The notes beneath the pieces were generated by a model. It did no database searches, had not been told where the DNA came from, and saw only the letters and a list, made by a program, of their open reading frames with translations. Shown piece after piece: positions 2,986-15,227 of a DNA stretch of 64,000 nucleotides (the first letter of the stretch is position 1; the number at the start of each line of letters is the position of its first letter). Origin of the DNA: a virus. Location: positions 64,001 through 128,000 of IMG/VR virus record IMGVR_UViG_3300046170_000502; one strand, given 5' to 3'. Made by a program: the position numbers and the translations under genes.

Positions 2986-5544
2986 TTACTTTACTTCAGA
3001 CATTTTCATATATATTTTTTCATCCATAACCCTTATGGAATCCAGAAAAATAATATCCTCAGCCTTTCTTCCGTAAGCGACGACAATATTTTTCTTAGAG
3101 GGTGCTTTTTTATTTTGTTGAAAATATCTGTCATAAAAATTACCCCTTCTTGAGTTTAACAACATTGCACTGTATCTTCCGTTTTCGTCTGCGATTTGAA
3201 GTTTAATATATTTATTTCCGTTTCGAGAGGTTGCTTTTAGCGAATCTTCTATTACTCCTATAAACTTACCTTTTTCGTCCAAGTCCATTAATTCTAAGTC
3301 TGTCGAGTCCTTTAAATCTTTATACAAGTCTATGAAGCAACTTTTTAATTTCGAGCTATGACTATATCCTAGTAGTTCATTTTCAAAATACCAATTCGCA
3401 AAAGTTTCGTATTTTTTATTTTTATCATAAATTGACTTGTACAAGTCATATTTCTTCTTGAATGTCTTGAACCTTGACTCCTTCATTAGTGGTTTTCCAT
3501 CATCTCCTACCATAGACTGATTTTTTGCATCAGAAATACAGTTTAATAATTTATATTCATATTCTTCTCCAAGAAAGATAAAGTTTCTCTTTTCCCTTTC
3601 TGTTAGCAGGTTAAAAGCCTGCGCTTCGAGCGCCATAAGCGACCTATTTGAACCTTTGCTTTCTAGTGCGCCAGCTTGAATCAAAGAGGAAAGAACTCCT
3701 ATGTTAAGACCAGCCTGTTTTGCGGCCAAGAAGATGTCGTATTTTGTTGGGGTATCACTAGATCTAAAGTCCCTCAGTGATTCCAAAGATTTTTCGCTAA
3801 CCCCTTTTATGCTGTTTAAGCCAAAGCGGATGTTTTTTCCCTCTATCGAGAAGTCCATTTTTGATTTTGCTAAATCTGGAGATAGTAGCTTTATTCCGAA
3901 ATTAGCCAGCTCTTTTGACACGGAGGAAATTTCTTCCTGCGGGGCAGGCTCATATTTAGTCATCCTTAATAAAGAAAGGAAAAACTGCTGTGGGTGATTG
4001 AACTTAAGATAAGACGTCCACGCCGCTAATGTTGCATAAGCTAGTGAGTGTGATTTATTAAAAGAATAATTCGCACTGTCCTCCGCTACGCTCCATAAAA
4101 TATCTCCGACTTCCGTAGGAAGATCATTATCAATAATCTTCTGTTGAATCTTTGCTTGCCAAGCAGGCATCTGATCCACTTTTTTCTTCCCGACAATCCT
4201 CCTTAGTTGCTCCGATTCATCTAAAGTAAAACCAACTTTTACCGCCATTTGCATAAGTTGCTCTTGGTACAAAGGAATTCCTCCTGTATAGTCTAAAACG
4301 TCCCTGAAGAATTCATGAATTACTTGAGGCTCTTTTGTCTGCGAATAAGTGGCGTAATCACCCAAAAAATCTAGTGCCCCTGGCCTGCCAATAGCGATAA
4401 CCGCACTAAGCTCCTCAAGATCTTTCGGCTTAATCTTTTTGCAAACTCTGAAATTAGTGTCAGATTCGAGCTGGAATAATCCATGGGGCGAACGCAACGA
4501 CTGAAGTGGCTTGAATATACTTCCATTACTTAAGTCGAGGTCCGATATATCCTCATTAATGTTTTTACATACATCATAAATAACACTCAACGTTCTTAAT
4601 CCAAGGATATCAAACTTCACCATCAATTCTGAGACCCAATTCATATCATAGCCAGTTACTAATGCTCCGTCATTTGTTTTTTGAACGGGGCAAATATCAG
4701 TAATTTTTTGAAAAGAAATAGCTATTCCACTTGGGTGAACTCCTGTATTTTTATTTAAACCTTCAATCTTTAAGGCTATCTCAAAAACATCTGGATGTTC
4801 TGCGGCCCAATCCGCAAATTTTTCGCTTTCTACAATAGCAGTCGAGATGGGAACGACAACTCCAAACTTTTTTGGAATAGTTGAACTTACTAGATTTACG
4901 TCCTGTTCGGAAAGATCGCCTACGATTTTCCCGCATTCTTTTACGCATAATTTTCCACTCAGGGTATTTAATGTTAAAATTTTTGCAGTTCTAGAGGGGT
5001 GTTTTCTTTCGATATATTCAATAACCTCGATTCTTCTTTCGTAAGCGATATCATTATCTACATCAGCCAGAAGGCTTCCGTCGAGATAGGTTATTCCACC
5101 TTTTTCTATCTTTTTCGCTCTACTCTTAGATACAAACCTCTCAAAAAACAAATTATATTTAACAGGGTCTACATTTGTGACCCCGATTAAATAAAGAACC
5201 AGCGACCCTGCTGCAGACCCTCTACCTGGACCTGTTGGGATATCATTTTCATGGCAAAAATTAATAATGTCCCAATTCAAAAGAATATAATCAATGAAAC
5301 CTAGTTCATTTAATATTTTTAATTCTGATTTTGCACGATCAAAATAATCTTTTTTATTTTTAAATTTATCTATTCCTTTATCCTTCACCCCTTTGTGACA
5401 TAACTTACGAAGGAAGTCGTAATTAGATATAGTGTTATCTGCTTCAAGCACATCGTAATACTTTTGCTCGATTTCAATCTCAGGAAGTCTAACTCCTGGA
5501 GGGCAGCACTCTTTGTATTCTGTAAATTGATCTGTAAAACTCAT
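2986..5544 (-). CDS. dnaE: DNA polymerase III alpha subunit core (palm/fingers/HhH/OB), lacking the PHP domain
   Basis: Motifs GPGRGSAAGSLV, catalytic DVDND, KFDILGL, YQEQLM and SFNKSH, plus a C-terminal OB fold. The start at 5544 forms an ATGA overlap with the upstream exonuclease stop. Confidence 0.95.
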   Translation of the reverse strand: MSFTDQFTEYKECCPPGVRLPEIEIEQKYYDVLEADNTISNYDFLRKLCHKGVKDKGIDKFKNKKDYFDRAKSELKILNELGFIDYILLNWDIINFCHENDIPTGPGRGSAAGSLVLYLIGVTNVDPVKYNLFFERFVSKSRAKKIEKGGITYLDGSLLADVDNDIAYERRIEVIEYIERKHPSRTAKILTLNTLSGKLCVKECGKIVGDLSEQDVNLVSSTIPKKFGVVVPISTAIVESEKFADWAAEHPDVFEIALKIEGLNKNTGVHPSGIAISFQKITDICPVQKTNDGALVTGYDMNWVSELMVKFDILGLRTLSVIYDVCKNINEDISDLDLSNGSIFKPLQSLRSPHGLFQLESDTNFRVCKKIKPKDLEELSAVIAIGRPGALDFLGDYATYSQTKEPQVIHEFFRDVLDYTGGIPLYQEQLMQMAVKVGFTLDESEQLRRIVGKKKVDQMPAWQAKIQQKIIDNDLPTEVGDILWSVAEDSANYSFNKSHSLAYATLAAWTSYLKFNHPQQFFLSLLRMTKYEPAPQEEISSVSKELANFGIKLLSPDLAKSKMDFSIEGKNIRFGLNSIKGVSEKSLESLRDFRSSDTPTKYDIFLAAKQAGLNIGVLSSLIQAGALESKGSNRSLMALEAQAFNLLTEREKRNFIFLGEEYEYKLLNCISDAKNQSMVGDDGKPLMKESRFKTFKKKYDLYKSIYDKNKKYETFANWYFENELLGYSHSSKLKSCFIDLYKDLKDSTDLELMDLDEKGKFIGVIEDSLKATSRNGNKYIKLQIADENGRYSAMLLNSRRGNFYDRYFQQNKKAPSKKNIVVAYGRKAEDIIFLDSIRVMDEKIYMKMSEVK

Positions 5545-6188
5545 ATTTCTATTTCCCATAGCATTTTCTTGAAAACTTCATAATTAACCTTTATATCGTA
5601 TAATGCATCATGCAGTTTAGTTGCGTCAAAAGGAACATCAAAGTCCTTGCAACACTGCTTGAGATTGCAAGATAGACCCCGTTCAATCAAATGATTTAAT
5701 CTATATTGCCAGGCCAGGAAATTATCTTCCTTGTTTATTTTAATTCTTTTCTTTAGTGCTTTGGCCAGGCAAAGTGTGTCGACTAATTTCTCTGAATAAC
5801 TAAAGTCCGACTCAGCTTTAGGGTTAATTAGTTTTCTATGCAGGTTATGCATGTAAACATCAAATCCTAATAAATTGTGCCCAACCTTAATGTAAGTATC
5901 ATCATACAAATATTTCTCAAAATGATCTAGTGCTCCTTTTGGGTCTACTGCGTTTTTTTTGTATTTGGCCTGAGTAAATCCTGTAATTTTTGCAGCTTCT
6001 GGAGACACCTTAAGGTCGTCCCATTTTAACCAATAATCTTTTTCTTCGACAATTTTATCCCCTTCTATGACGAGGAATGCTAATTGCCATGGTTTATTTT
6101 CTCCAGAAATTAAATTAAGATTGCAGGTCTCATAATCAAAAAGTAAATATTTTTGTTTGTTTTTAAATCTAAGTAATGTTTCTTTCAT
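5541..6188 (-). CDS. DEDDh 3'-5' exonuclease (DnaQ/epsilon-like proofreader)
   Basis: Exo I FDYET, Exo II GHNLLGFD and Exo III LHDALYD motifs; lies between the PHP and dnaE core genes. Confidence 0.88.
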   Translation of the reverse strand: MKETLLRFKNKQKYLLFDYETCNLNLISGENKPWQLAFLVIEGDKIVEEKDYWLKWDDLKVSPEAAKITGFTQAKYKKNAVDPKGALDHFEKYLYDDTYIKVGHNLLGFDVYMHNLHRKLINPKAESDFSYSEKLVDTLCLAKALKKRIKINKEDNFLAWQYRLNHLIERGLSCNLKQCCKDFDVPFDATKLHDALYDIKVNYEVFKKMLWEIEI

Positions 6189-6200
6189 TTATTTATTTAT

Positions 6201-6959
6201 TTATTTATTTTCTTTCCAGCTTTCGAAACTAAATTCGCTACTACCGAAATGATCTAGGTTAGGTTTTGATAAGGTTTTATTACCGAAGCTGCGACTAGTA
6301 ATACATTTATATGTTTGTAGCGCGGATACATCATTCCTACTTTTGTAATAAATACTTTTTACGGATTCTACATTAGATTCATTCTCTTCTGCATATTTTA
6401 TAACCCTGGATCTTAATAGCAAGTCGAAGGGTAGGTTATTATTTTCTAGAAAAAATGTAGGCTTGGCAAACGAAAAATTAGGTGTGCAATTGCTGAATTT
6501 CATAGTATTATTGAATATAAACGAGTCGTAAAAAGGTATTGCTAGCGAAAGGTTCTTGTTGCTCCAGTGTTTTTTTAGTATTTTTTGATCTACCGCATTG
6601 AATGATTCAGAAAAAGCTTCGCTAGATATCGCATTAAGTAATGCGCAACCTTTTGAGTTTTTGGCGAAAATAACAATCTTATGCCTTGAACTATTAGATT
6701 CTTCTTTTGGATTAATCCTTGCATTTTCGCACATATCTAATCTCAAGCCAAAAATTAATTTTACTCCCATAGAATCCGAGACTTTTTTGGCTTGAAGGAA
6801 GCCTGTTAACGAATCTTCTACGAGAATGACTTCTTTAAGATTACTTTCTTTGACTATCGAAAAAACGCTATCAGATTTACCTTCTTTTTGTGACGAAGGA
6901 TCGTCCAGCGTTAGTATGCTTTTTCCTATTGAAAAATGACTTTTAAATAATGGTAACAT
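6201..6959 (-). CDS. Stand-alone PHP domain of DNA polymerase III alpha
   Basis: Resembles the DnaE N-terminus (LFKSHFSIGKSIL...ILVEDSLTGF...GVKLIFGLRL...IVIFAKN...YKCI). Metal-binding motifs look degenerate. Confidence 0.8.
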   Translation of the reverse strand: MLPLFKSHFSIGKSILTLDDPSSQKEGKSDSVFSIVKESNLKEVILVEDSLTGFLQAKKVSDSMGVKLIFGLRLDMCENARINPKEESNSSRHKIVIFAKNSKGCALLNAISSEAFSESFNAVDQKILKKHWSNKNLSLAIPFYDSFIFNNTMKFSNCTPNFSFAKPTFFLENNNLPFDLLLRSRVIKYAEENESNVESVKSIYYKSRNDVSALQTYKCITSRSFGNKTLSKPNLDHFGSSEFSFESWKENK

Positions 6960-7048: not shown

Positions 7049-8062
7049 TCAAAAATCGTCGTCAAGCGAGCCGCTTTGTTGGTACTCCCGAACCCTTCTC
7101 TCGAAAAAGTTGCCCATTGCTTGAACATCTACAACTTCACCCAACCAAGGGAAGGGGTTTTTGTCACTCGGAAACCTATAGTCTAACCCTATAGCTTCTA
7201 GTCTCCTATTACCTATGTAATGCATATAGTCAACAAACATATCCGCATTAAGCCCTAAAATTCCTGTAGGTAAAACGTCGTGAGCATAAGCAATTTCAAG
7301 TTCTACTGCTTTTTTCATATGCTCTACAAATTCATCTTGCATTTTCTTGGTCCAAATAGAGGGCTCTTGTTCGATGATTGTATTAATAATATAAGTTCCG
7401 AAAGCTATATGTGAGCTCTCATCCCTCAATGTATACTTTATTTGGTCAGATATCCCTTGAAGTTTATTTTGCCTACCTAAGGCTAAGAGCATAGCGAACC
7501 CGCTAAAGAAAAAAGTACCTTCGCAAACAATCCAGTATGTTAAAAAATTTCTAAGTATTTCTTGTTTCCCTTCTTTTGTGTTTGCATTAAAATCTTGAGC
7601 GCTAATATCATTCGTAATCTGCATTAAGAAGTCGTCTTTAGCTTTGATACTTGGGATCGTTTCGTATGCAGCGAATACCTCTTCTATATCAAGGTCAAGG
7701 CTATCACAAATATAAACTACCGTAAGGTTGTGAAGGCTTTCTTCAAACGCTTGCCGCAGGATATACTGACGACATTCAGCATCCGTAACATAGCGAAAGG
7801 CAGATAACAAAAGATTATTACCAACCAAAGACTCAGATCCAGCAAAAAACCCAAGGCAGCGTTTAACAAGTAATTTTTCATCTTCTGTAATTTCATTATT
7901 TTTCCATTGTTTAATGTCGTTCTGCATGCTGATTTCTGTTGGCATCCAGTTATTTGCGCAACTTTTTAAAAATAAATCCCATGCGTATTTATGTTTATGT
8001 GGTAAAATTCTATTTACCCCCGCTATATCTTTAGTTAGTAATTTTCCTGTTTTATCTTCCAT
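7049..8062 (-). CDS. nrdB: Ribonucleotide reductase beta subunit (R2) with class Ic signatures
   Basis: Ferritin-like ligands FFAGSESLV, EESLH, CEG and RDESSH, with C-terminal FFERRVREY. The radical-Tyr position (H+4) is Val and the first ligand is Glu. Confidence 0.93.
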   Translation of the reverse strand: MEDKTGKLLTKDIAGVNRILPHKHKYAWDLFLKSCANNWMPTEISMQNDIKQWKNNEITEDEKLLVKRCLGFFAGSESLVGNNLLLSAFRYVTDAECRQYILRQAFEESLHNLTVVYICDSLDLDIEEVFAAYETIPSIKAKDDFLMQITNDISAQDFNANTKEGKQEILRNFLTYWIVCEGTFFFSGFAMLLALGRQNKLQGISDQIKYTLRDESSHIAFGTYIINTIIEQEPSIWTKKMQDEFVEHMKKAVELEIAYAHDVLPTGILGLNADMFVDYMHYIGNRRLEAIGLDYRFPSDKNPFPWLGEVVDVQAMGNFFERRVREYQQSGSLDDDF

Positions 8063-8068
8063 GTTTAT

Positions 8069-8097
8069 AGTATATCATTATAATATAACGAAGTCAA
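8069..8097 (-). promoter_or_regulatory. Sigma70-type promoter, leaderless
   Basis: TTGACT-17 nt-TATACT, 6 nt before the ATG at 8062. Confidence 0.8.
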
Positions 8098-8113
8098 TGT
8101 TAAAAAAGATCAG

Positions 8114-10573
8114 TTATTGACAACTTTCGCAAGTTTCTCCATTTTTCATAGCTTCAATACTGCATGCAGAGGCTTCCGTTTCGTTTTCTGAATCTCCTGT
8201 AGATTTTTCAACTTTTGATGCTGCCCTATTTCTTAAGTAATAAGTTGTTTTTAATCCAGCTTCCCAGCAAGCCATATACATATCGTTTAAATATTTTAAA
8301 GACGTTCCTTTATTGTATAAATTAAAACTTATAGCCTGATCAATCCATTTTTGCCTGACCGAATTGCATTCTATTAATTTAAACATATCTCTATCAAAAG
8401 CTGTTTTGTATTTTAATTTTATCCACTCGGGCACCTCACCATTTAATACTGATAAATCTCCATCAGCATCTTTAATTAATTTTGAGTTGTTTGGGTTCCA
8501 CAGCCCTTCTTTTTTCATATCATTTATAAAGTGTTGGTTGGTGATATAAAAATTACCGCTTTTGTTCTCATAAACAAAAAGAACAGAAAAATTAGGCTCA
8601 ATACTTTGCTCTACTCCATTAATATAACCTATCGTTGCAGTAGGAGCGATAGCCATGACATTTGAGTTTCTCATTCCAAATTCACCAACGTGAGTCCTGA
8701 TTTTTTCCCACTCATCAAAAGTTTGACCTTTGCCAGTAAGAGGCTTACCTGTAACGGACTGTTTAGGAGCTTTTTGTTTGCCCCTGTAAGCCATTAAGTT
8801 GTTGTAAGAATCAATTGGGAATACACCTTTGCTCCAGAGTGACCCTTCGTAAGTTTCGTATTGACCTCGCTCCGCAGCTAGTAATGAACTAGCATAAATT
8901 GCGTGCATAGAGTAAAACTCAAATAATTTATCATTAAACTTTGCAGCTTCGTCGCTATCTATATTTATATTAACTTTATGAAGAATATCGTGAAGAGCCA
9001 TCATGCCTAGACCAATAGGGCGATGTCTTAAATTACTGTTTTCCGCCTCTTTTGTGGGGTAAAAATTAAGATCTATAACGTTGTCTAGCGCTCTGATTGC
9101 TGTATGAATTGTTCGCTCTAATTTTACATAATCAAGATCGGTTTCATCTTCATTTATGTGGTTTAACAAGTTAACTGATCCAAGGTTACATACTGCGGTT
9201 TCTCCAATTTCTGTTTTATAACCCTTGTTGTATTTTGAAGCTTTTGTGTGAAGGGTAATTTCTGTGCATAAATTACTGCTATGTACAACCCCTTCGTGCT
9301 GGTTTGTATAGCGCATGTTACATGGGTCTTTAAATGTAGCCCATGGATGAGAAGTTTCAAACAAAACTTTTAACATTTTTTTCCATAACTCTTTTGCGGG
9401 AGTTATTCTATAGTTTTTAATTAACCCTTCCTCTGCTTGGCTACAAAGCTCATTATATTTTTCGTCGAACTCAACCCCAAAACAATCGTGTAAATCAGCT
9501 TCTGTTGGGTCAAAGAAGTACCAAACATCTTCGTTTTGTACTCTTCTCATGAATTCATCAGGAATCCAAGATGCCGTGTTCATATCGTGGCACCGTAACC
9601 TGTCGTCTCCAGTGTTTCTCCGAAGGTTTAAAAAGTCTTCAAAGTCTAAATGCCAAGGCTCTAAATACGCACAGCCTGCGCCTGGTCGTTTTCCTCCTTG
9701 ATTGACTGCAACAAGCAAGTCGTTGTAAATTTTTAACCAAGGAATTAAACCTCCAGAAATTCCATTTGTTCCCTTTATGTGAGAACCTGCAGATCTAAAT
9801 GGGGTTACATCAAAGCCAAGGCCTCCGGCATACTTGCTTTTTCTAGCTTCCTGCCAAGCTCCATCAAAAATTCCATCAATACTGTCGTCAAAAGTGTTTA
9901 AATAGCAAGAGCTTAATTGAGAATGTGTTGTTCCGCTATTAAATAAAGTCGGGGTAGAAGATGTATACAAAAACTGACTAAACATATCATAAAACTTAAT
10001 AGCCCACTCTTCTTTATTTTCTTCGTTAATTGCCAAACCCATCGCGACTCTCATCCAAAAGCATTGTGGGGCTTCCATTATTTTATCTTCATGTCTAATG
10101 AAATATCTATCGGTTAAAATTTGAATGCCTAAATATTTAAAAGATTGATCTCTCCTTATCTTTAAAGCTTCAGATAATTTATTAAGATCAAATTCAAGCA
10201 TTTTAGAGTTAAGCTTTTCTAGCTTTACTAATTTTTTTACATTTTGTATAAAGCTTTTTCTATATTGAAGCTTGAACGTGTCTGAATCGACCCCCTCTTT
10301 AAAGACTTCTTTATATACGGTATTCAAAAGCAATCTTGCAGCAACAAAGCTGTAGTTCGGTTCTTTTTCTATTTTTTCTCTAGCAGAAAGGATTAAAGCT
10401 GTATCTATTTCGCTAGTCGTTATCTTGTCGAATAGTTGGAGTTGTGCATCTAGTAAAACCTCACTGACTGAGGCGTCTTCGATTCCCTCACATGCTCGTT
10501 CTACATTTGCGTTTATTTTTTCTACCAAAAAAGGTTGGAGTCTACCGTTTCGTTTTTTTACGTTGATATTCAT
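8114..10573 (-). CDS. nrdA: Ribonucleoside-diphosphate reductase alpha subunit, class I, with N-terminal ATP cone
   Basis: VKKRNG ATP cone, STPTLFNSG, SSCY, SNLCTEI, VCNLGS, APTATI, KTTYYLR and a C-terminal CESC. Confidence 0.96.
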   Translation of the reverse strand: MNINVKKRNGRLQPFLVEKINANVERACEGIEDASVSEVLLDAQLQLFDKITTSEIDTALILSAREKIEKEPNYSFVAARLLLNTVYKEVFKEGVDSDTFKLQYRKSFIQNVKKLVKLEKLNSKMLEFDLNKLSEALKIRRDQSFKYLGIQILTDRYFIRHEDKIMEAPQCFWMRVAMGLAINEENKEEWAIKFYDMFSQFLYTSSTPTLFNSGTTHSQLSSCYLNTFDDSIDGIFDGAWQEARKSKYAGGLGFDVTPFRSAGSHIKGTNGISGGLIPWLKIYNDLLVAVNQGGKRPGAGCAYLEPWHLDFEDFLNLRRNTGDDRLRCHDMNTASWIPDEFMRRVQNEDVWYFFDPTEADLHDCFGVEFDEKYNELCSQAEEGLIKNYRITPAKELWKKMLKVLFETSHPWATFKDPCNMRYTNQHEGVVHSSNLCTEITLHTKASKYNKGYKTEIGETAVCNLGSVNLLNHINEDETDLDYVKLERTIHTAIRALDNVIDLNFYPTKEAENSNLRHRPIGLGMMALHDILHKVNINIDSDEAAKFNDKLFEFYSMHAIYASSLLAAERGQYETYEGSLWSKGVFPIDSYNNLMAYRGKQKAPKQSVTGKPLTGKGQTFDEWEKIRTHVGEFGMRNSNVMAIAPTATIGYINGVEQSIEPNFSVLFVYENKSGNFYITNQHFINDMKKEGLWNPNNSKLIKDADGDLSVLNGEVPEWIKLKYKTAFDRDMFKLIECNSVRQKWIDQAISFNLYNKGTSLKYLNDMYMACWEAGLKTTYYLRNRAASKVEKSTGDSENETEASACSIEAMKNGETCESCQ

Positions 10574-10585
10574 ATTGATGTTATT

Positions 10586-10614
10586 ATAATAGCATTTTAT
10601 TGACCAAGTGTCAA
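10586..10614 (-). promoter_or_regulatory. Sigma70-type promoter for nrdA
   Basis: TTGACA-17 nt-TATTAT with extended -10 TG; 12 nt to the ATG. Confidence 0.65.
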
Positions 10615-10677: not shown

Positions 10678-11976
10678 TTAAGACAGTATGTCGAAAAGGG
10701 GAGTTCCTTTGTTCGCTACAGTAAAAGGTCTTCCAGATGGGGAATATTGTACATCATTCAACTTTAAACCCAATAAGTAGCCTATTGTTGCATTTAAATC
10801 CTCGGGCTTAATTGGCTTTCCCTCTTTAGGAGATCTACCTTGGTCGTCTGCCTCTCCGTAAGAAAAGCCTCCTTTAACCCCTCCTCCAGCCATAAATGCG
10901 GTAAAGCAATATGGCCAATGATCTCTTCCGTCTCTACCATTGATATTAGGAGTTCTCCCAAATTCAGAAGTTAATACGACCAAAGTTTCATTTAATAAAC
11001 CTCTCATTTCAAGGTCGATCAATAAAGCGCTCAAGGCTCCATCTATATCCGCACAATTTTCACCAACCCTATCGAAGTTATTATCATGGGTATCCCATCC
11101 ACCCCTGGTCACTTCTACATACCTCACTCCGTTTTCAACTAATCTTCTTGCGAGTAAGCACCCCTGTCCGAAATTCGAAGCGCCGTATTGTTTGTGTATA
11201 TTTTCTGGTTCTTTAGATATATCAAAAGCTTTTAAGTCTTGACTATTCATTAGCTTAATTGCGTCTTTGTATAAATCTGAATATGCTCTTATTTGTTTCT
11301 GAGGGAATTCTGTAGAGAAGTTTGTGTTCAACTTTTCTATCAAAGATATTCTTCCTTGAAAATGCTCTTTATCTAGATATCCCGCTAGTTTACTATTTGC
11401 AAGTCCTGACTTTGGGTTATTTATGGATAGTGGACCATATTTTGACTCAAGAAATCCAGCTCCCAGCCCTCCGCCACCAATTTTAATATTAGATGGAATT
11501 GTTTCGTTGATTGCTCCAGACAATTTAGATACCCAACTCCCAAAAGTGGGGTGAACTATAGTACCCCTTTTTAAGTAGCTCGTATGCATTAGGTAGCTAG
11601 CTTGCTCATGCGCTCCTTGGCTCGTTACCATTGTCTTGATTATTGATGCCTGATGCATTAATTGTGCAGTTTTAGGTAAATGCTCAGAAAGTAATATTCC
11701 GTCGGCGCTGGTAGCGATAGATTTAGTTGGCCCTTGAATATCAGGGCAATCAGGTTTAGTTCCAAAAGTATCTAAATGAGACATAGCTCCTGCCATGTTG
11801 AGATAAATCACATGCCTTGCAGAAGCTAATCTAGCCCCCACTTCAAGAGCTTGAGCATTGTTATGTATATAGGCTCCAGCCATAGGCATCAACCCAACGC
11901 CAAAACACGCCTTTGCCGCGTGTGCGATAAATTCTCTTCTTCCTAATTCATCTATATTATTAAAATTTGTTTTCAT
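10678..11976 (-). CDS. DUF1501 family protein (sulfatase/alkaline-phosphatase-like fold) with a Tat signal
   Basis: RREFI twin-arginine motif; GAMSHLDTF, FGQGCLLARRLVENGVRYVEV, GWDTH and EFGRTP..N...GRDHWP. Confidence 0.9.
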   Translation of the reverse strand: MKTNFNNIDELGRREFIAHAAKACFGVGLMPMAGAYIHNNAQALEVGARLASARHVIYLNMAGAMSHLDTFGTKPDCPDIQGPTKSIATSADGILLSEHLPKTAQLMHQASIIKTMVTSQGAHEQASYLMHTSYLKRGTIVHPTFGSWVSKLSGAINETIPSNIKIGGGGLGAGFLESKYGPLSINNPKSGLANSKLAGYLDKEHFQGRISLIEKLNTNFSTEFPQKQIRAYSDLYKDAIKLMNSQDLKAFDISKEPENIHKQYGASNFGQGCLLARRLVENGVRYVEVTRGGWDTHDNNFDRVGENCADIDGALSALLIDLEMRGLLNETLVVLTSEFGRTPNINGRDGRDHWPYCFTAFMAGGGVKGGFSYGEADDQGRSPKEGKPIKPEDLNATIGYLLGLKLNDVQYSPSGRPFTVANKGTPLFDILS

Positions 11977-11992
11977 ATATTTTTTCCTTTTA

Positions 11993-14239
11993 TTATTTTA
12001 TAAAGATGTATTCATGCGAATTTACTAAAGCCCATATTATTTCTTTATATATATCTTTTTTGTTTATTAGTGCGTCTTTGAATAATTTTAACTCTGCTAT
12101 AGAGGGTTTTCTATTTAAAATAGATTTAAAACCGACTTTTATTTTATCATCTAATGTTTTTTGTTCTTTTATTAATTTTACTATCTCTGAGTTTTTATTG
12201 TTTATAACTTTTGTTTCAATAAAACCATTAATTAAATTAAGAACTTGTGTTGTTGATGGGTCTGTATTTGAGTTTTCAATTTGTTCACGATCTGAGCCTC
12301 CAAATTCTCTAACTATATGACCTACGGGAGCTGGAGAACTTAATTCTGATGCTCGAACGGAGTTTCTATCTTTTACGAAATTATTCTTATCTTGCTGTTT
12401 TTTCTGAGAATTAAATTTTTCTACGCAAGACTTACAGCAGAACGCAAGAGTTTCTCCGTTTTCGTTTAGCGCTAATAAAGTTGGGTCAATAGCTCGACCA
12501 GGTTTGATTGGGCAGTCTATATTAATTGGGTTTCCAAATTTTTGATTGGTCTTGGGTTTTTGCGTTTTATTTATTCGAGACAATAATTCTTCAAGCAGCC
12601 CTTCTCCTGTCATGCTAGAAAACCTCTCAAAATCCTGATAGCCTGAATTTTTTGGCTGAAGTCTTCGAGAGTCTATATCCTTAAAATTCAAAGAGACTAA
12701 TGAATCCCACAGTTGCTCGCCACTCATCCTTTGCAAAATGGGGCCCTGATAGAAAAACGGAACTGCATTGAAAGATTGTTTTTCAACATTTGGTCCAGCA
12801 ATCACCCATTCAACGCCCACTGGCATAACAGTATCTTTTTCGTCTCTAGGTACAATATCTCTAGAAACAGATTGTCTTTGAAAGGTTTTTGTGTTGTAAA
12901 GTATTCTTAAGAACTCCTTTATGTCAAAATTTAATGCAACCATAACTTTTTCTAAATGAAGCTGTAATACTGGATCTGTTGCCATAGTCTCGTCAAACAT
13001 ATTATCTATTGGCTCAATTAGAGCTAACCCAAAAACCTCTTTCCATAATCTATTAACAATGACAGATGTAAATCTTGGGTTTTTTTCTGACGCCAACCAG
13101 TTTGCGTATAGCTCTCTTGAGCCAGTACCTTTGGCAAGTTCTATTTCTCGACCAAAAAGAGTTTTTCCTAAAAGGGATTCGTTTGGTTTTGCGTTGTCGT
13201 ATTGATAATCTTTAGGTAAATTGATTTTACCTGACCCTGGCTGATCTAGCCCCGCTTGCAATATATCTTGTATTGACCTTGAAGCATTTCTAACTTGAGG
13301 TACTTTTTGAGGCTCCCCAGCTTCCTCCAACCTTTTCTGTTCTTCTCTGACTAGTTTATTGAATTGGTTGAGATTGTCAACCCCTTTTCTTCTAAGATTT
13401 GTAGAACCACTGGTAAACGCAGCCATCTCATAAAATTCTTTTTGTGTCCATCTATCAAATGGATGATCGTGGCATTGCGCGCATTCTAAACTTGTGCCAA
13501 GGAAGATTCGGACGGTGTTAGCCATATTATCTAAAGGCATACCTGCATCTCTTGCAAAATAACCTACCCCTTCACTGCCTTTCTTCCATATAGGACCAGA
13601 AGAAGAGAGCATTTCTCTTACCCATTTATCATATGGTCTATTTTCAGATATAAATTGTTTGACATAATTTTTATATGGAATTCCTGATATTCTATTAGTT
13701 AATCTATCTTTTAATCTTAATATATCTGCCCAAAAGTTAAACCAATGACTATTGTATCCCTCGCTAGCTAATAAATCGTCTATGAGTTTTGTTCTTTTAT
13801 TCTTGTCTCTATTTTCGATAAAGCTATTCACTTCCTTGTAAGAAGGTGTTCTGCCTATTATTTTTAGATACGCTCTTCTAGAAAACGAAGAATCATTAAT
13901 TTCTTTATTAGGTCTTTGATTATAAGATCTTAATTTATTTTCGATTAGTTGATCTATGTACCTTGAATTTTTAATTAAATCTTGATCGGATAATGGTTTT
14001 TTAAATTTTGGTAAATTTTCGTGACCTGGGGCGAAGTTATTTTTCACATAAGCTTGATTGTCTTTTGTTAATAGTTTAAGAGGTATTCTAAAAAGTTGGA
14101 AGTCATCTTCTCTTTTGACAACAACATGCGTGCTGTTAGATTCTATTATTTCCCCTCTAATATTATTTCCATCATTAAAATATAAAACATCTCCAGAACA
14201 AAATAAAGATGATAAAATTAATAAAAATAAGTGTTTCAT
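11993..14239 (-). CDS. DUF1549/DUF1553 (PSCyt2/PSD1) exported cytochrome-c-motif protein
   Basis: Hydrophobic N-terminal signal; RRAYLKIIGRTP, CAQCHDHPFD (CxxCH), NPRFTSVIVNRLWK and WALVNSHEYIF. The ATG at 14239 is preferred over the GTG at 14275. Confidence 0.9.
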   Translation of the reverse strand: MKHLFLLILSSLFCSGDVLYFNDGNNIRGEIIESNSTHVVVKREDDFQLFRIPLKLLTKDNQAYVKNNFAPGHENLPKFKKPLSDQDLIKNSRYIDQLIENKLRSYNQRPNKEINDSSFSRRAYLKIIGRTPSYKEVNSFIENRDKNKRTKLIDDLLASEGYNSHWFNFWADILRLKDRLTNRISGIPYKNYVKQFISENRPYDKWVREMLSSSGPIWKKGSEGVGYFARDAGMPLDNMANTVRIFLGTSLECAQCHDHPFDRWTQKEFYEMAAFTSGSTNLRRKGVDNLNQFNKLVREEQKRLEEAGEPQKVPQVRNASRSIQDILQAGLDQPGSGKINLPKDYQYDNAKPNESLLGKTLFGREIELAKGTGSRELYANWLASEKNPRFTSVIVNRLWKEVFGLALIEPIDNMFDETMATDPVLQLHLEKVMVALNFDIKEFLRILYNTKTFQRQSVSRDIVPRDEKDTVMPVGVEWVIAGPNVEKQSFNAVPFFYQGPILQRMSGEQLWDSLVSLNFKDIDSRRLQPKNSGYQDFERFSSMTGEGLLEELLSRINKTQKPKTNQKFGNPINIDCPIKPGRAIDPTLLALNENGETLAFCCKSCVEKFNSQKKQQDKNNFVKDRNSVRASELSSPAPVGHIVREFGGSDREQIENSNTDPSTTQVLNLINGFIETKVINNKNSEIVKLIKEQKTLDDKIKVGFKSILNRKPSIAELKLFKDALINKKDIYKEIIWALVNSHEYIFIK

Positions 14240-14275: not shown

Positions 14276-14301
14276 AAAAAAGCCGCCAAAAGGCGGCTTT
14301 T
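14276..14301 (-). terminator. Rho-independent terminator
   Basis: AGCCGCC-TTTT-GGCGGCT followed by a T-run on the minus strand. Confidence 0.85.
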
Positions 14302-14320: not shown

Positions 14321-14560
14321 CTACTCTTTTGGAGAATTTGGTTTTAAAAGCGCAACTAGAAGAAGTAATGTAATTACTCCCGCCAAGGATGCGCCTTGAC
14401 CAACAAATCCTGTCACGACATCCTGTAGGTTGCCGATTACGTTAATAGGAGCTCCCTCGCCAAAGACGACTTGAGCTACGACCAAAAGGCCGATGATTGA
14501 CAGAAGCACGCTTGTAACGCCTCCTGCATATGATTTAATCGTATCGATTGTATTTTTCAT
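14321..14560 (-). CDS. Small two-TM membrane protein
   Basis: Two hydrophobic helices in 79 aa. Confidence 0.7.
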   Translation of the reverse strand: MKNTIDTIKSYAGGVTSVLLSIIGLLVVAQVVFGEGAPINVIGNLQDVVTGFVGQGASLAGVITLLLLVALLKPNSPKE

Positions 14561-14573
14561 AATATTATTTTAA

Positions 14574-15227
14574 TTAGAATTGCGTTGAGATTCCCAATCC
14601 AACCACATATTCTTCACCAATAGTCTCTGAATCAACCCTAAAGAGATCTAATCCAATAGATGATTTTTCACCTAAAGATCTGGATGCCTCTAGTCCGATA
14701 GTATAGTATGTGTTATCAGTGGAGTTGGATGCATCGGTGTTACCTAATGAACCTAAAACATTTAGATCGCACACTTGCAGATCAAAACTATGTGATATAG
14801 ATAGTTCGTAGGTGTAGAGAGAGTCATCCAGCTGCCTGAATAAGCTAAAAGATGGGTTAAGTAAGGTGTCAATACCGACACCAATATGACCTTCCAATGC
14901 AGCTGATCCAGTAACATTTTCTACATGATTCAATCCAACATAAAAATCTAAAAGCGAATCCAAAAAGCTCTTAGAAACTCCTCCAGCGAGAACGTATGAA
15001 TCTACTCCTGAATTAACAGATTGGTTTGTGAATGCTCCTACAGAATAATCTAGTCCGGAAACTTTTCCACTCATGCCTAAATCTACTTGAATAGATTCTT
15101 GAGCTTGTAGTGTGCCTCGATAAAAATAATCGGAAGCGTATTTTGTTCCTAGAGAAAAACTCTCCGCAGAAGCGACGTTGATAAAAAGCCCCAAGAGGGC
15201 TGTGATAATTAATTTTGTTGTCTTCAT
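14574..15227 (-). CDS. Outer-membrane beta-barrel protein, TorF/TIGR02001-like putative porin
   Basis: Signal peptide (..VASA/E), SDYFYRG motif, alternating beta-strands and a C-terminal Phe (GISTQF). Confidence 0.7.
   Translation of the reverse strand: MKTTKLIITALLGLFINVASAESFSLGTKYASDYFYRGTLQAQESIQVDLGMSGKVSGLDYSVGAFTNQSVNSGVDSYVLAGGVSKSFLDSLLDFYVGLNHVENVTGSAALEGHIGVGIDTLLNPSFSLFRQLDDSLYTYELSISHSFDLQVCDLNVLGSLGNTDASNSTDNTYYTIGLEASRSLGEKSSIGLDLFRVDSETIGEEYVVGLGISTQF

What the first reader, a model, noticed from the sequence alone, without database searches (positions are those of the whole stretch)
10678..14239. PVC-type DUF1549/DUF1553 cytochrome-motif gene plus Tat-exported DUF1501 gene carried intact by a phage
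Seen: two adjacent full-length genes with intact motifs (CxxCH at 13469-13483; RREF Tat signal; GWDTH and GRDHWP). They form their own unit after a terminator, with a GTGTA motif and phage-like AT-rich codons, next to nrdAB. Known: this pair is greatly expanded in Planctomycetes and Verrucomicrobia and has no established function; DUF1501 is sulfatase/alkaline-phosphatase-like. Inference: a candidate new auxiliary metabolic system, a periplasmic redox/hydrolase complex expressed during infection, perhaps for scavenging sulfated or phosphorylated substrates. It is also the strongest host clue in the window.
Basis: partly seen in the sequence, partly recalled or inferred. Interest (0 to 1): 0.85.

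Follow-up and report, generated by a model that had tools for sequence, protein, structure and literature searches.

The report
Phage-borne Opitutales DUF1501 enzyme pair
A large uncultured phage carries two intact exported genes of unknown function (a haem-motif helper and a phosphatase/sulfatase-fold enzyme) taken from Opitutales (Verrucomicrobia) bacteria; its relatives have captured such genes repeatedly, which names the likely host and gives a small handle on a large orphan gene family.

Summary
Window 11993-14239(-) encodes a Sec-exported PSCyt2/PSD1 (DUF1549/DUF1553) protein with an invariant CAQCH. Window 10678-11976(-) encodes a Tat-exported DUF1501 protein. Both lie between phage genes.

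It is not a chimera: 46 IMG/VR contigs of up to 214 kb carry DUF1501 at 60-100% identity in the same replication module, and dN/dS is 0.02-0.10.

The closest cellular copies (64-78% identity) are one conserved operon of Opitutales, which also has a third gene, a PSCyt1 cytochrome c, that the phages lack. Phage copies are not one clade (AU p 4e-24). At least five exchanges with cells are needed, and one is recent (93% aa, host-like GC). Sister phages hold other paralog pairs in the same slot.

DUF1501 has an alkaline-phosphatase-superfamily fold (Z 20 to NPP/PafA, Z 17-19 to sulfatases) but no formylglycine motif. A co-fold supports a complex (ipSAE 0.85, best control 0.00).

Substrate, haem binding and expression remain untested. 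No paper in the searched library reports this in phages. The scan had already found the same thing on other DNA (at least 79 genomes).

Verdict: a real, host-derived auxiliary gene pair and a good host clue. Its function is unknown and its interest is moderate.

The parts
14278..14301 (-). Hairpin + T-run terminator that ends the upstream 217-aa/79-aa unit and precedes the pair
   Evidence: Read directly; found by the scan (10-bp stem, 6 GC pairs). The stem is a palindrome, so it reads as a terminator on the minus strand.
11993..14239 (-). PSCyt2/PSD1 (DUF1549/DUF1553) gene, 748 aa, Sec-type signal peptide
   Evidence: Pfam PF07583 E 3e-43 and PF07587 E 1.4e-24. AF2 model pLDDT 86.3. 30 of 46 related phage loci carry it directly upstream of DUF1501.
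14036..14191 (-). N-terminal small beta domain (residues about 17-68), SHD1-like
   Evidence: Best structural match of the model: Sla1 homology domain 1, Z 7.1, rmsd 2.7, 61 aligned. Weak, so fold level only.
13469..13483 (-). CAQCH motif (C253, C256, H257 of the 748-aa protein)
   Evidence: Coordinates. C, A, C, H and P260 are invariant in 45 phage and cellular sequences.
12425..12514 (-). YHS/TRASH-like Cys cluster (CP-x24-CC-x2-C), a variable insert
   Evidence: Opitutales orthologs have two such modules or a PSCyt1 insert at this point, and clade-B phages have none. There is a weak Pfam YHS hit in the Opitutales form (E 2.9e-5, below cut-off).
12002..12034 (-). C-terminal W-x-L-x-N-x-x-x-F-x-F motif (W736 to F746), the predicted docking site for DUF1501
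   Evidence: Nearly invariant columns. The equivalent residues 702-712 of the L022 protein give the lowest-error contacts in the co-fold.
10678..11976 (-). DUF1501 gene, 432 aa, Tat signal, alkaline-phosphatase-superfamily fold
   Evidence: Pfam PF07394 E 2e-107. AF2 pLDDT 87.7. VIA-align Z 20.4 to ENPP6, 20.0 to PafA, 17-19 to sulfatases. dN/dS 0.02 against L001.
11929..11940 (-). Twin-arginine motif RREF
   Evidence: R13 and R14 are invariant in 54 sequences. Residues 1-47 have low pLDDT, as expected of a signal peptide.
11248..11496 (-). Helical cap of DUF1501 (residues 161-243), the predicted interface with PSD1
   Evidence: Interface list, including the nearly invariant R209. Its conservation relative to the rest of the protein is about the same in phages that lack the partner gene as in those that have it.
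10912..11100 (-). Candidate metal/active-site motifs: GWDTH (11086-11100), SEFGR (10954-10968), GRDHWP (10912-10929)
   Evidence: D295, E338, F339, G340, R341, R351 and H353 are invariant; H297 and D352 are nearly so. hhalign against 15 Opitutales sulfatases places SEFGR on the sulfatase S-D-N-G metal-ligand turn (prob 94.8%, E 4.9e-8).
10586..10614 (-). Strong sigma-70-like promoter of nrdA, the downstream boundary of the unit
   Evidence: TTGACA-17-TATTAT with TG, 11 of 12 matches.

Best explanation
This is a host-derived auxiliary gene pair of a roughly 180-210 kb uncultured myovirus lineage that most likely infects Opitutales (Verrucomicrobiota).

The phage copied the first two genes of a conserved three-gene Opitutales operon (PSCyt2/PSD1, DUF1501, PSCyt1 cytochrome c) into its replication and nucleotide-metabolism module.

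Proposed mechanism, in order:
1. During infection both proteins are exported. PSCyt2/PSD1 goes by Sec. DUF1501 goes folded, probably metal-loaded, by Tat.
2. The helical cap of DUF1501 docks on the conserved C-terminus of PSD1.
3. The complex supplements or replaces the host's own copy of one specific periplasmic activity.
4. The catalytic part is DUF1501, a non-canonical alkaline-phosphatase-superfamily metalloenzyme. My best guess for the chemistry is hydrolysis of a phospho-ester (less likely a sulfo-ester) on an extracytoplasmic substrate, feeding phosphorus or another nutrient to phage DNA synthesis.

Shown here: gene identity, phage context, selection, origin from Opitutales, repeated capture, fold.

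Supported by a model only: the complex and its interface.

Inferred: export, timing, chemistry, and the benefit to the phage.
For: Identity and intactness.

Phage context. No close isolated relative exists.

Not a chimera:
- 46 IMG/VR loci carry DUF1501 at 60-100% identity in the same module. 30 have PSCyt2/PSD1 directly upstream, 15 lack it, and 1 is cut by the contig end.
- The window's own PSCyt2/PSD1 protein is seen on contigs of up to 177 kb.

Selection: dN/dS is 0.02 for DUF1501 and 0.07-0.10 for PSCyt2/PSD1.

Origin:
- 10 of 201 sampled genomes of the order hold an ortholog at 64-78% identity, and all other GTDB hits are at 49% or less.
- Those loci have no phage genes, GC of 39-59%, and a conserved operon in which a PSCyt1 cytochrome gene follows DUF1501 in 9 of 9 loci.
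- NCBI names for close hits are 'Opitutales bacterium' and 'Opitutia bacterium'.

Repeated capture:
- The careful tree puts the window's clade (27 phages) as sister to genomes G142/G160 (99/95), and a second clade with G001/G081/G192.
- The AU test rejects a single phage clade (delta lnL 182, p 4e-24).
- The PSCyt2/PSD1 tree is congruent.
- The wider tree needs 7 changes of label, and at least 5 are forced by well-supported branches.
- Phage L218's copy is 93% aa and 81% nt identical to G176, with host-like GC (46% against 37% for the locus). The window's copy is at 40% GC and 78% identity, so the captures differ in age and the direction is host to phage.
- Backbone-identical phages (NrdB 91-96% identical) carry other paralog pairs in the same slot.

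Fold.

Complex: ipSAE 0.85, 0.85 and 0.86 against a best control of 0.00. That mark was reached by 58 of 80 solved complexes and 2 of 110 mismatched pairs. The runs agree in at least 64% of contacts, and the partner's pLDDT is 85. Neither protein has a solved relative by sequence, so the pass is unlikely to come from memory.
Against: - No direct evidence of expression, export, metal or haem content, or any enzymatic activity.
- The co-fold was run on the pair of a sister phage (L022) because the window's pair exceeds the size limit. It used my own alignments, so the calibration holds only roughly.
- The chemistry is weakly constrained. Structural matches to phosphodiesterases (Z 19-20) and sulfatases (Z 17-19) are effectively tied.
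- The Asp pair at the end of strand 1 of sulfatases has no counterpart, and no Ser/Thr/Cys nucleophile could be placed with confidence.
- Dozens of paralogs per host genome (27 matches in G001) argue against a single simple role such as phosphate scavenging.
- The host assignment rests on gene phylogeny alone. No CRISPR spacer, tRNA or physical link was available.
Confidence: 0.78

Rival explanations
1. A redox complex. The invariant CxxCH of PSCyt2 binds haem c. The phage complex plugs into the host's PSCyt1 cytochrome (the third operon gene that the phage lacks). DUF1501 then carries out an electron-coupled reaction rather than simple hydrolysis.
For: CAQCH is invariant in 45 sequences. In all nine Opitutales loci a genuine PSCyt1 cytochrome c gene follows DUF1501, and a multihaem/TPR gene lies divergently beside it in five. 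Tat export is typical of cofactor-bearing enzymes (established knowledge). Kamneva et al. 2012 proposed electron transport for the module (PMC3542564).
Against: No cytochrome fold was found for the region around the motif. The best hit to the main body of the model is Z 6.3, in the range of chance. The alkaline-phosphatase superfamily is hydrolytic or transferase by established knowledge. Many phages keep DUF1501 alone. No redox cofactor motif was seen in DUF1501.
Confidence: 0.2
2. A sulfatase-type activity on sulfated algal polysaccharides, extending the host's large sulfatase repertoire during infection.
For: The hosts are sulfatase-rich: 21, 106 and 117 PF00884 matches in three Opitutales genomes. 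A sulfatase gene lies a few genes downstream in the cellular operon. The C-terminal half is demonstrably homologous to S1 sulfatases (hhalign prob 94.8%; hmmsearch against PDB).
Against: There is no C/S-x-P-x-R formylglycine signature anywhere in the protein. There is no Pfam Sulfatase hit at E 0.01 or better. The sulfatase metal-ligand Asp-Asn/His is Glu-Phe here. The two Asp residues at the end of strand 1 align to Met-x in a low-confidence global alignment.
Confidence: 0.12
3. Not metabolic. The exported pair remodels the cell envelope, for example by removing or transferring a phospho-group on a surface glycan, for superinfection exclusion or receptor destruction.
For: The neighbours in the phage are other exported or envelope and glycan genes: a 217-aa ORF, a 79-aa membrane protein, Gmd and glycosyltransferases. 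Alkaline-phosphatase-superfamily members LtaS, EptA, MCR-1 and PbgA act on envelope lipids and polymers and match at Z about 16. Cassette swapping between related phages resembles host-range or exclusion loci.
Against: The phage copies stay very close to one vertically inherited host operon (up to 93% aa) under strong purifying selection. This suggests the host's own biochemical function is retained. The matches to envelope transferases are weaker than those to NPPs and sulfatases, and those transferases have membrane anchors that this protein lacks.
Confidence: 0.12
4. Assembly or binning artefact: a host fragment joined to phage DNA.
For: None found. It is raised only because the genes are typical of cellular genomes.
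Against: The same junctions recur in dozens of independent assemblies. GC3 equals that of the phage neighbours. The phage copies form their own clades. The cellular orthologs sit in quite different, phage-free contexts.
Confidence: 0.01

Closest known systems
The 'DUF1501 + PSCyt1/PSCyt2/PSD1' conserved genetic module of Planctomycetes, Verrucomicrobia and Lentisphaerae (Kamneva et al. 2012, PMC3542564; He et al. 2017, PMC5615132)
   Same: Same two Pfam architectures, same gene order and strand, Tat motif on DUF1501, signal peptide and CxxCH on the partner. The function is unknown in both cases.
   Different: Here it is encoded by a phage as a single copy, reduced to two genes: the PSCyt1 cytochrome of the cellular operon is missing. 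The partner protein is shortened (748 aa against 835-890 aa), with one or none of the YHS-like or PSCyt1 inserts.
Phage auxiliary metabolic genes for nutrient acquisition (for example cyanophage pstS and phoA; from my own knowledge, not checked here)
   Same: A host-derived gene for a periplasmic nutrient-processing protein, kept under purifying selection among phage replication genes.
   Different: The biochemical function is unknown. It is a two-subunit module. It has been captured repeatedly, and different paralogs are swapped in one slot. The hosts are Verrucomicrobia rather than cyanobacteria.
Nucleotide pyrophosphatase/phosphodiesterases and PafA-type phosphatases (ENPP6 5ege, PafA 5too, Xac NPP 7mw8)
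   Same: Best structural matches of the DUF1501 model (Z 19.4-20.4, rmsd 3.0-4.3, 243-272 residues aligned).
   Different: Only 11-15% identity. The window protein has no Pfam Phosphodiest hit at E 0.01 or better. No Thr nucleophile could be aligned with confidence (hhalign to Opitutales PF01663 proteins gave prob 9%).
Type I (S1) formylglycine sulfatases
   Same: Superfamily fold (Z 17-19) and a demonstrably homologous C-terminal half.
   Different: No C/S-x-P-x-R motif. Glu-Phe replaces the Asp-Asn/His metal ligands.

Membership tests
Pfam DUF1501 (PF07394) | Full-length match above the gathering score | tested here: met
   360.1 bits against a cut-off of 27, profile 1-389 of 390.
Pfam DUF1501 (PF07394) | N-terminal twin-arginine signal, usual in the family | tested here: met
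   GRREFI, then a hydrophobic stretch and AQA. R13 and R14 are invariant in 54 sequences. Actual export was not tested.
PSCyt2 (PF07583) + PSD1 (PF07587) | Both domains above the gathering score in one protein, with the CxxCH motif | tested here: met
   148.6 bits against 29.8, and 87.3 bits against 28.5. CAQCH is invariant.
PVC DUF1501/PSCyt/PSD module (Kamneva 2012) | The PSCyt2/PSD1 gene lies immediately upstream of DUF1501 on the same strand | tested here: met
   There is a 16-nt spacer in the window. The same order is seen in most of the 80 cellular loci and in 30 phage loci.
Opitutales three-gene operon (PSCyt2/PSD1, DUF1501, PSCyt1 cytochrome) | Third gene with PSCyt1 cytochrome c domains downstream of DUF1501 | tested here: not met
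   Present in 9 of 9 cellular loci. There is no homolog in the window or in the 46 phage loci. In the window, nrdA with its own promoter follows instead.
Alkaline phosphatase superfamily | Core alpha/beta fold | tested here: met
   VIA-align Z 15-20 to NPPs, PafA, sulfatases, AP, LtaS and EptA over residues about 50-432. Foldseek prob 1.00.
Type I (S1) sulfatase | C/S-x-P-x-R formylglycine motif at the nucleophile position | tested here: not met
   A regex search found no match in the protein. By spacing to the conserved Thr (T132), the slot holds the invariant H123; this is an inference from a low-confidence alignment.
Type I (S1) sulfatase | Asp-Asn/His metal ligands after the central strand; Pfam PF00884 match | tested here: not met
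   These align to E338-F339. There is no PF00884 hit at E 0.01 or better.
NPP / PafA phosphodiesterase-phosphatase | Thr nucleophile and a two-metal site (Asp, Asp/His, Asp-His, His) | tested here: inconclusive
   These are the best structural matches. D295/H297 and D352/H353 are conserved. However, no reliable residue-level alignment of the N-terminal half could be made, and model coordinates could not be inspected.
c-type cytochrome | CxxCH with covalently bound haem in a cytochrome fold | tested here: inconclusive
   The motif is present and invariant. No cytochrome fold was matched around it, but the 748-residue model was searched whole. Haem attachment is not testable with these tools.
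Phage auxiliary (host-derived) gene | Phage genes on both sides, cellular homologs, purifying selection | tested here: met
Phage auxiliary (host-derived) gene | Expressed during infection | not tested

The most novel reading that the evidence does not exclude
DUF1501 is a non-canonical alkaline-phosphatase-superfamily enzyme with an invariant histidine in the nucleophile slot. It works only when docked on a PSD1 scaffold and is wired to c-type cytochromes. This would be a redox-coupled periplasmic enzyme class that is still undescribed. It would matter enough to Verrucomicrobia that one phage lineage has captured its catalytic subunit at least five times and swaps paralogs to match hosts or substrates.
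Probability: 0.15. Interest if true: 0.8.

Novelty: new member of a known kind. Interest (0 to 1): 0.52.

Why it matters
- The DUF1501 / PSCyt / PSD module is among the most expanded gene families of Planctomycetes and Verrucomicrobia, with dozens of copies per genome. It has had no known function since it was described in 2004-2012.
- A phage that keeps a single, trimmed, strongly selected copy points to the minimal working unit: DUF1501, with or without the PSCyt2/PSD1 scaffold. It also singles out one orthogroup as physiologically limiting.
- The phage version gives small, paralog-free constructs for biochemistry.
- The predicted interface (DUF1501 cap against the PSD1 C-terminal motif) is a directly testable hypothesis for the whole family.
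- The gene trees also assign an abundant group of uncultured phages of about 200 kb to Opitutales hosts, for which very few phages are known.

Tried and rejected
The contexts of the metagenome hits labelled 'Verrucomicrobiota bacterium' therefore could not be read. I used GTDB genomes instead.
- No whole genome is held for the window.
- No DNA or protein match to DUF1501 in 50,697 GenBank phage records.
- Sequence searches of the PDB gave nothing meaningful for either protein. The aspartate carbamoyltransferase hits are chance (E above 0.05).
- The fold search of the whole PSCyt2/PSD1 model found no known fold for the main helical body (best Z 6-7).
- hhalign of DUF1501 against four Opitutales PF01663 proteins gave prob 9% and was rejected as a basis for mapping the nucleophile.
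- The global hhalign to sulfatases has low confidence in the N-terminal half and is used only as a hint.
- The GTGTA motif as a phage promoter is rejected: it is not enriched.
- A lipoprotein reading of the PSCyt2/PSD1 signal peptide is rejected: the Cys is not conserved among relatives.
The pair of sister phage L022 was used instead.


Full report
**What is there.**
On the minus strand, 11993-14239 encodes a 748-aa protein with PSCyt2 (DUF1549) and PSD1 (DUF1553) domains. Sixteen bases downstream, 10678-11976 encodes a 432-aa DUF1501 protein.

The longer GTG frame overlaps a hairpin plus T-run terminator (14278-14301) that closes the upstream 217-aa/79-aa unit.

- The first protein begins with a Sec-type signal peptide.
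- The second begins with GRREFI, a hydrophobic stretch and AQA, a classic Tat signal whose two arginines are invariant in 54 relatives.
- The 'GTGTA' motif is not enriched in the window, and I found no recognisable promoter for the pair.

**Context.**
The window is phage throughout. It holds nrdAB, a split DnaE-type polymerase with a DEDDh exonuclease, a ClpB-like ATPase, Hsp20, a Gmd/glycosyltransferase run, tail sheath and tail fibres. No isolated phage is close, and none of 50,697 GenBank phage records encodes a DUF1501 protein.

IMG/VR, in contrast, holds 46 loci with DUF1501 at 60-100% identity, on contigs of up to 214 kb and always within the same replication module.

- 30 loci have PSCyt2/PSD1 directly upstream.
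- 15 have DUF1501 alone.
- 1 is cut by the contig end.

GC3 of the two genes equals that of the neighbouring phage genes. dN/dS is 0.02 for DUF1501 and 0.07-0.10 for PSCyt2/PSD1 wherever dS is not saturated. A chimeric insert is excluded.

**Origin.**
A scan of one genome per GTDB species found a single close hit: 73% identity, in an 'Opitutia bacterium' MAG. Its flanks are cellular (multihaem/TPR protein, GYF/DUF975 membrane protein; GC 44%). Identity then drops to 49% or less in other Verrucomicrobiota and Planctomycetota.

Searching 201 genomes of that MAG's order found ten with an ortholog at 64-78% identity.

- Their loci hold no phage genes and have GC of 39-59%.
- They share a conserved arrangement: PSCyt2/PSD1, DUF1501, then a PSCyt1 cytochrome c gene in 9 of 9 loci. 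A divergent multihaem/TPR gene sits on one side and a PAS/RHH gene, a class-V aminotransferase and a sulfatase on the other.
- NCBI names of close metagenome hits read 'Opitutales bacterium'.
- None of the cellular neighbours has a homolog in the window or in the phage loci.

The phage therefore took only the first two genes, or only DUF1501. These genomes carry 21-117 sulfatase matches and, in the one counted, 27 DUF1501 matches. They are typical polysaccharide-degrading Verrucomicrobia.

**Repeated capture.**
In a careful ML tree rooted on the paralogs at 53% identity or less, the phage copies are not one clade.

- The window's clade (27 phages) is sister to genomes G142/G160 (99/95).
- A second clade (10 phages) nests with G001/G081/G192.
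- A third clade (9 phages, DUF1501 only) branches deeper.
- The Opitutales sequences form the backbone.
- The AU test rejects a single phage clade (delta lnL 182, p 4e-24).
- The PSCyt2/PSD1 tree gives the same two associations, so the pair moved as a unit.

A profile scan of IMG/VR found 526 stretches encoding DUF1501 relatives. Among the best 80:

- Three more phages nest with genomes G123/G176.
- A phage-only clade of 15 sits at 49-53% identity.
- Another clade of 7 sits at about 40% identity.

The phage label needs 7 changes on this wider tree, and at least 5 are forced by well-supported branches.

Several members of the 49-53% clade have a backbone nearly identical to the window's clade (NrdB 91-96% identical) and carry their different paralog pair in the same slot beside nrdAB. 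This is cassette replacement.

The ages of capture differ:

| Phage copy | Nearest cell copy | aa identity | nt identity | Gene GC | Phage locus GC |
|---|---|---|---|---|---|
| L218 | G176 | 93% | 81% | 46% (cell gene also 46%) | 37% |
| L022 | G001 / G081 | 87-88% | 74-75% | 43% | 37% |
| Window | G142 / G160 | 78% | 68-69% | 40% | 36% (whole window) |

This gradient, together with the conserved cellular synteny, argues for transfer from host to phage.

**Proteins.**
*DUF1501.* The model is confident (pLDDT 87.7) and belongs to the alkaline-phosphatase superfamily.

- Z 20.4 to ENPP6, 20.0 to PafA, 19.8 to ENPP7, 19.4 to a bacterial NPP.
- Z 17-19 to many S1 sulfatases, and about 16 to LtaS, EptA and PbgA.
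- These are effectively tied, so the fold does not choose a chemistry.
- Profile comparison with 15 Opitutales sulfatases shows true homology of the C-terminal half only (prob 94.8%, E 4.9e-8). It places SEFGR on the sulfatase S-D-N-G metal-ligand turn, so invariant E338 takes the Asp position and F339 the Asn/His position.
- There is no C/S-x-P-x-R motif.
- Invariant or nearly invariant polar residues are D69, T70, H123, T132, D295, H297, D312, D321, E338, R341, R351, D352 and H353.
- By spacing to T132, which a low-confidence global alignment puts on the Thr of the sulfatase L-T-G turn, the nucleophile slot would hold H123. This is an inference, not a result.

*PSCyt2/PSD1.* This model is also confident (pLDDT 86.3).

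- Apart from an N-terminal SHD1-like beta domain (Z 7.1), it matches no solved fold.
- CAQCH is invariant.
- The Opitutales orthologs are 835-890 aa. At one insertion point they carry either two YHS/TRASH-like Cys modules or a PSCyt1 domain. The window's protein keeps one module, and clade-B phages keep none.

**Complex.**
The window's pair exceeds the size limit, so I co-folded the pair of sister phage L022: DUF1501 residues 54-428 and PSCyt2/PSD1 residues 90-714, each with an alignment.

- The score was 0.85, 0.85 and 0.86 against a best control of 0.00.
- That mark was reached by 58 of 80 solved complexes and 2 of 110 mismatched pairs.
- The runs share at least 64% of contacts, and the partner's pLDDT is 85.
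- The model supports binding; it does not show it.
- The interface joins the helical cap of DUF1501 (residues 161-243, including nearly invariant R209) to the extreme C-terminus of PSD1. It uses the nearly invariant W, L, N, F, F motif plus invariant Q629 and N635 (L022 numbering; Q665 and N671 in the window's 748-aa protein).
- Neither protein has a solved relative by sequence, so a pass from memory is unlikely.
- In phages that lack the partner gene, the interface residues are as conserved relative to the rest of the protein as in phages that have it. This is consistent with those enzymes docking on the host's PSCyt2/PSD1.

**Interpretation.**
The shown facts fit a host-derived auxiliary gene pair. 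It would be exported to the periplasm during infection, and its catalytic subunit, DUF1501, is what the phages need.

My preferred chemistry is hydrolysis of a phospho-ester that feeds phage DNA synthesis. The reasons are the best structural neighbours, the absence of the sulfatase signature, Tat export as in PhoD/PhoX-type phosphatases (established knowledge), and the position next to nrdAB. I put this at only about 35-40%.

The rivals are:
- a cytochrome-linked redox reaction;
- a sulfo-esterase without formylglycine;
- envelope remodelling for exclusion.

**Literature and earlier notes.**
The module is described as a PVC-specific system of unknown function (PMC3542564, PMC5615132). Full-text searches found no paper that reports it in phages.

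The scan itself has reported the same phage-borne pair on other DNA (125 notes in at least 79 genomes). Those notes reached the same general reading. I read them after forming mine and re-derived the points I use.

- the explicit AU-tested polyphyly;
- the gradient of capture ages;
- the three-gene cellular operon with the missing PSCyt1 gene;
- the residue-level interface.

Noticed in passing
L001, L004, L006 and others against window 7049-10573: The nrdA-nrdB cassette lies on the opposite strand relative to DUF1501 in most clade-A relatives. In the window, L002 and L043 it is on the same strand, so the cassette is inverted between close relatives. In clade B the cassette sits upstream of the pair instead.
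   Followed up: partly
L003:9556-9942 (-): In the L003-type relatives, a 128-aa ORF with a signal-peptide-like start lies on the opposite strand in the roughly 420-bp gap between PSCyt2/PSD1 and DUF1501. The window has only a 16-nt spacer.
   Followed up: no
L142-L150 (Opitutales genomes): The cellular orthologs form a conserved operon of PSCyt2/PSD1, DUF1501 and a PSCyt1 cytochrome c (570-700 aa). A divergent multihaem/TPR protein and a GYF/DUF975 membrane protein lie upstream. A PAS/RHH protein, a class-V aminotransferase and a sulfatase lie downstream.
   Followed up: yes
Alignment A3, columns about 880-1045: At one insertion point, the Opitutales PSCyt2/PSD1 orthologs carry either two YHS/TRASH-like Cys modules or a PSCyt1 (CxxCH) domain. 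Phage copies keep one module or none. This looks like domain swapping at a fixed site.
   Followed up: partly
L234/L243 (2805 and 4001), L256 (4001 and 5236), L257 (1 and 4001): Some related viral contigs carry two different DUF1501 genes close together.
   Followed up: no
L032:11348-12154 (-), L035:12106-12915 (-): In the DUF1501-only phage clade, the gene next to DUF1501 on the opposite strand encodes a P-loop kinase with weak APS-kinase and cytidylyltransferase-like matches (possibly NadR-like).
   Followed up: no
G001:C61:2708-3094: The Opitutia MAG holds a second fragment, at a contig end, that is 71% identical to residues 303-431 of the phage DUF1501. It could be a second ortholog or a phage fragment binned with the MAG.
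   Followed up: no
window 14321-15227 (-): The 217-aa and 79-aa ORFs upstream of the pair have no Pfam or PHROG match. They travel with the pair's region in nearly all related phages, though they are not always adjacent to it.
   Followed up: partly
window 2986-6959 (-): The DnaE-type polymerase is split into three genes (an N-terminal piece, a DEDDh exonuclease and the polymerase core). The same order is kept in all related loci.
   Followed up: no
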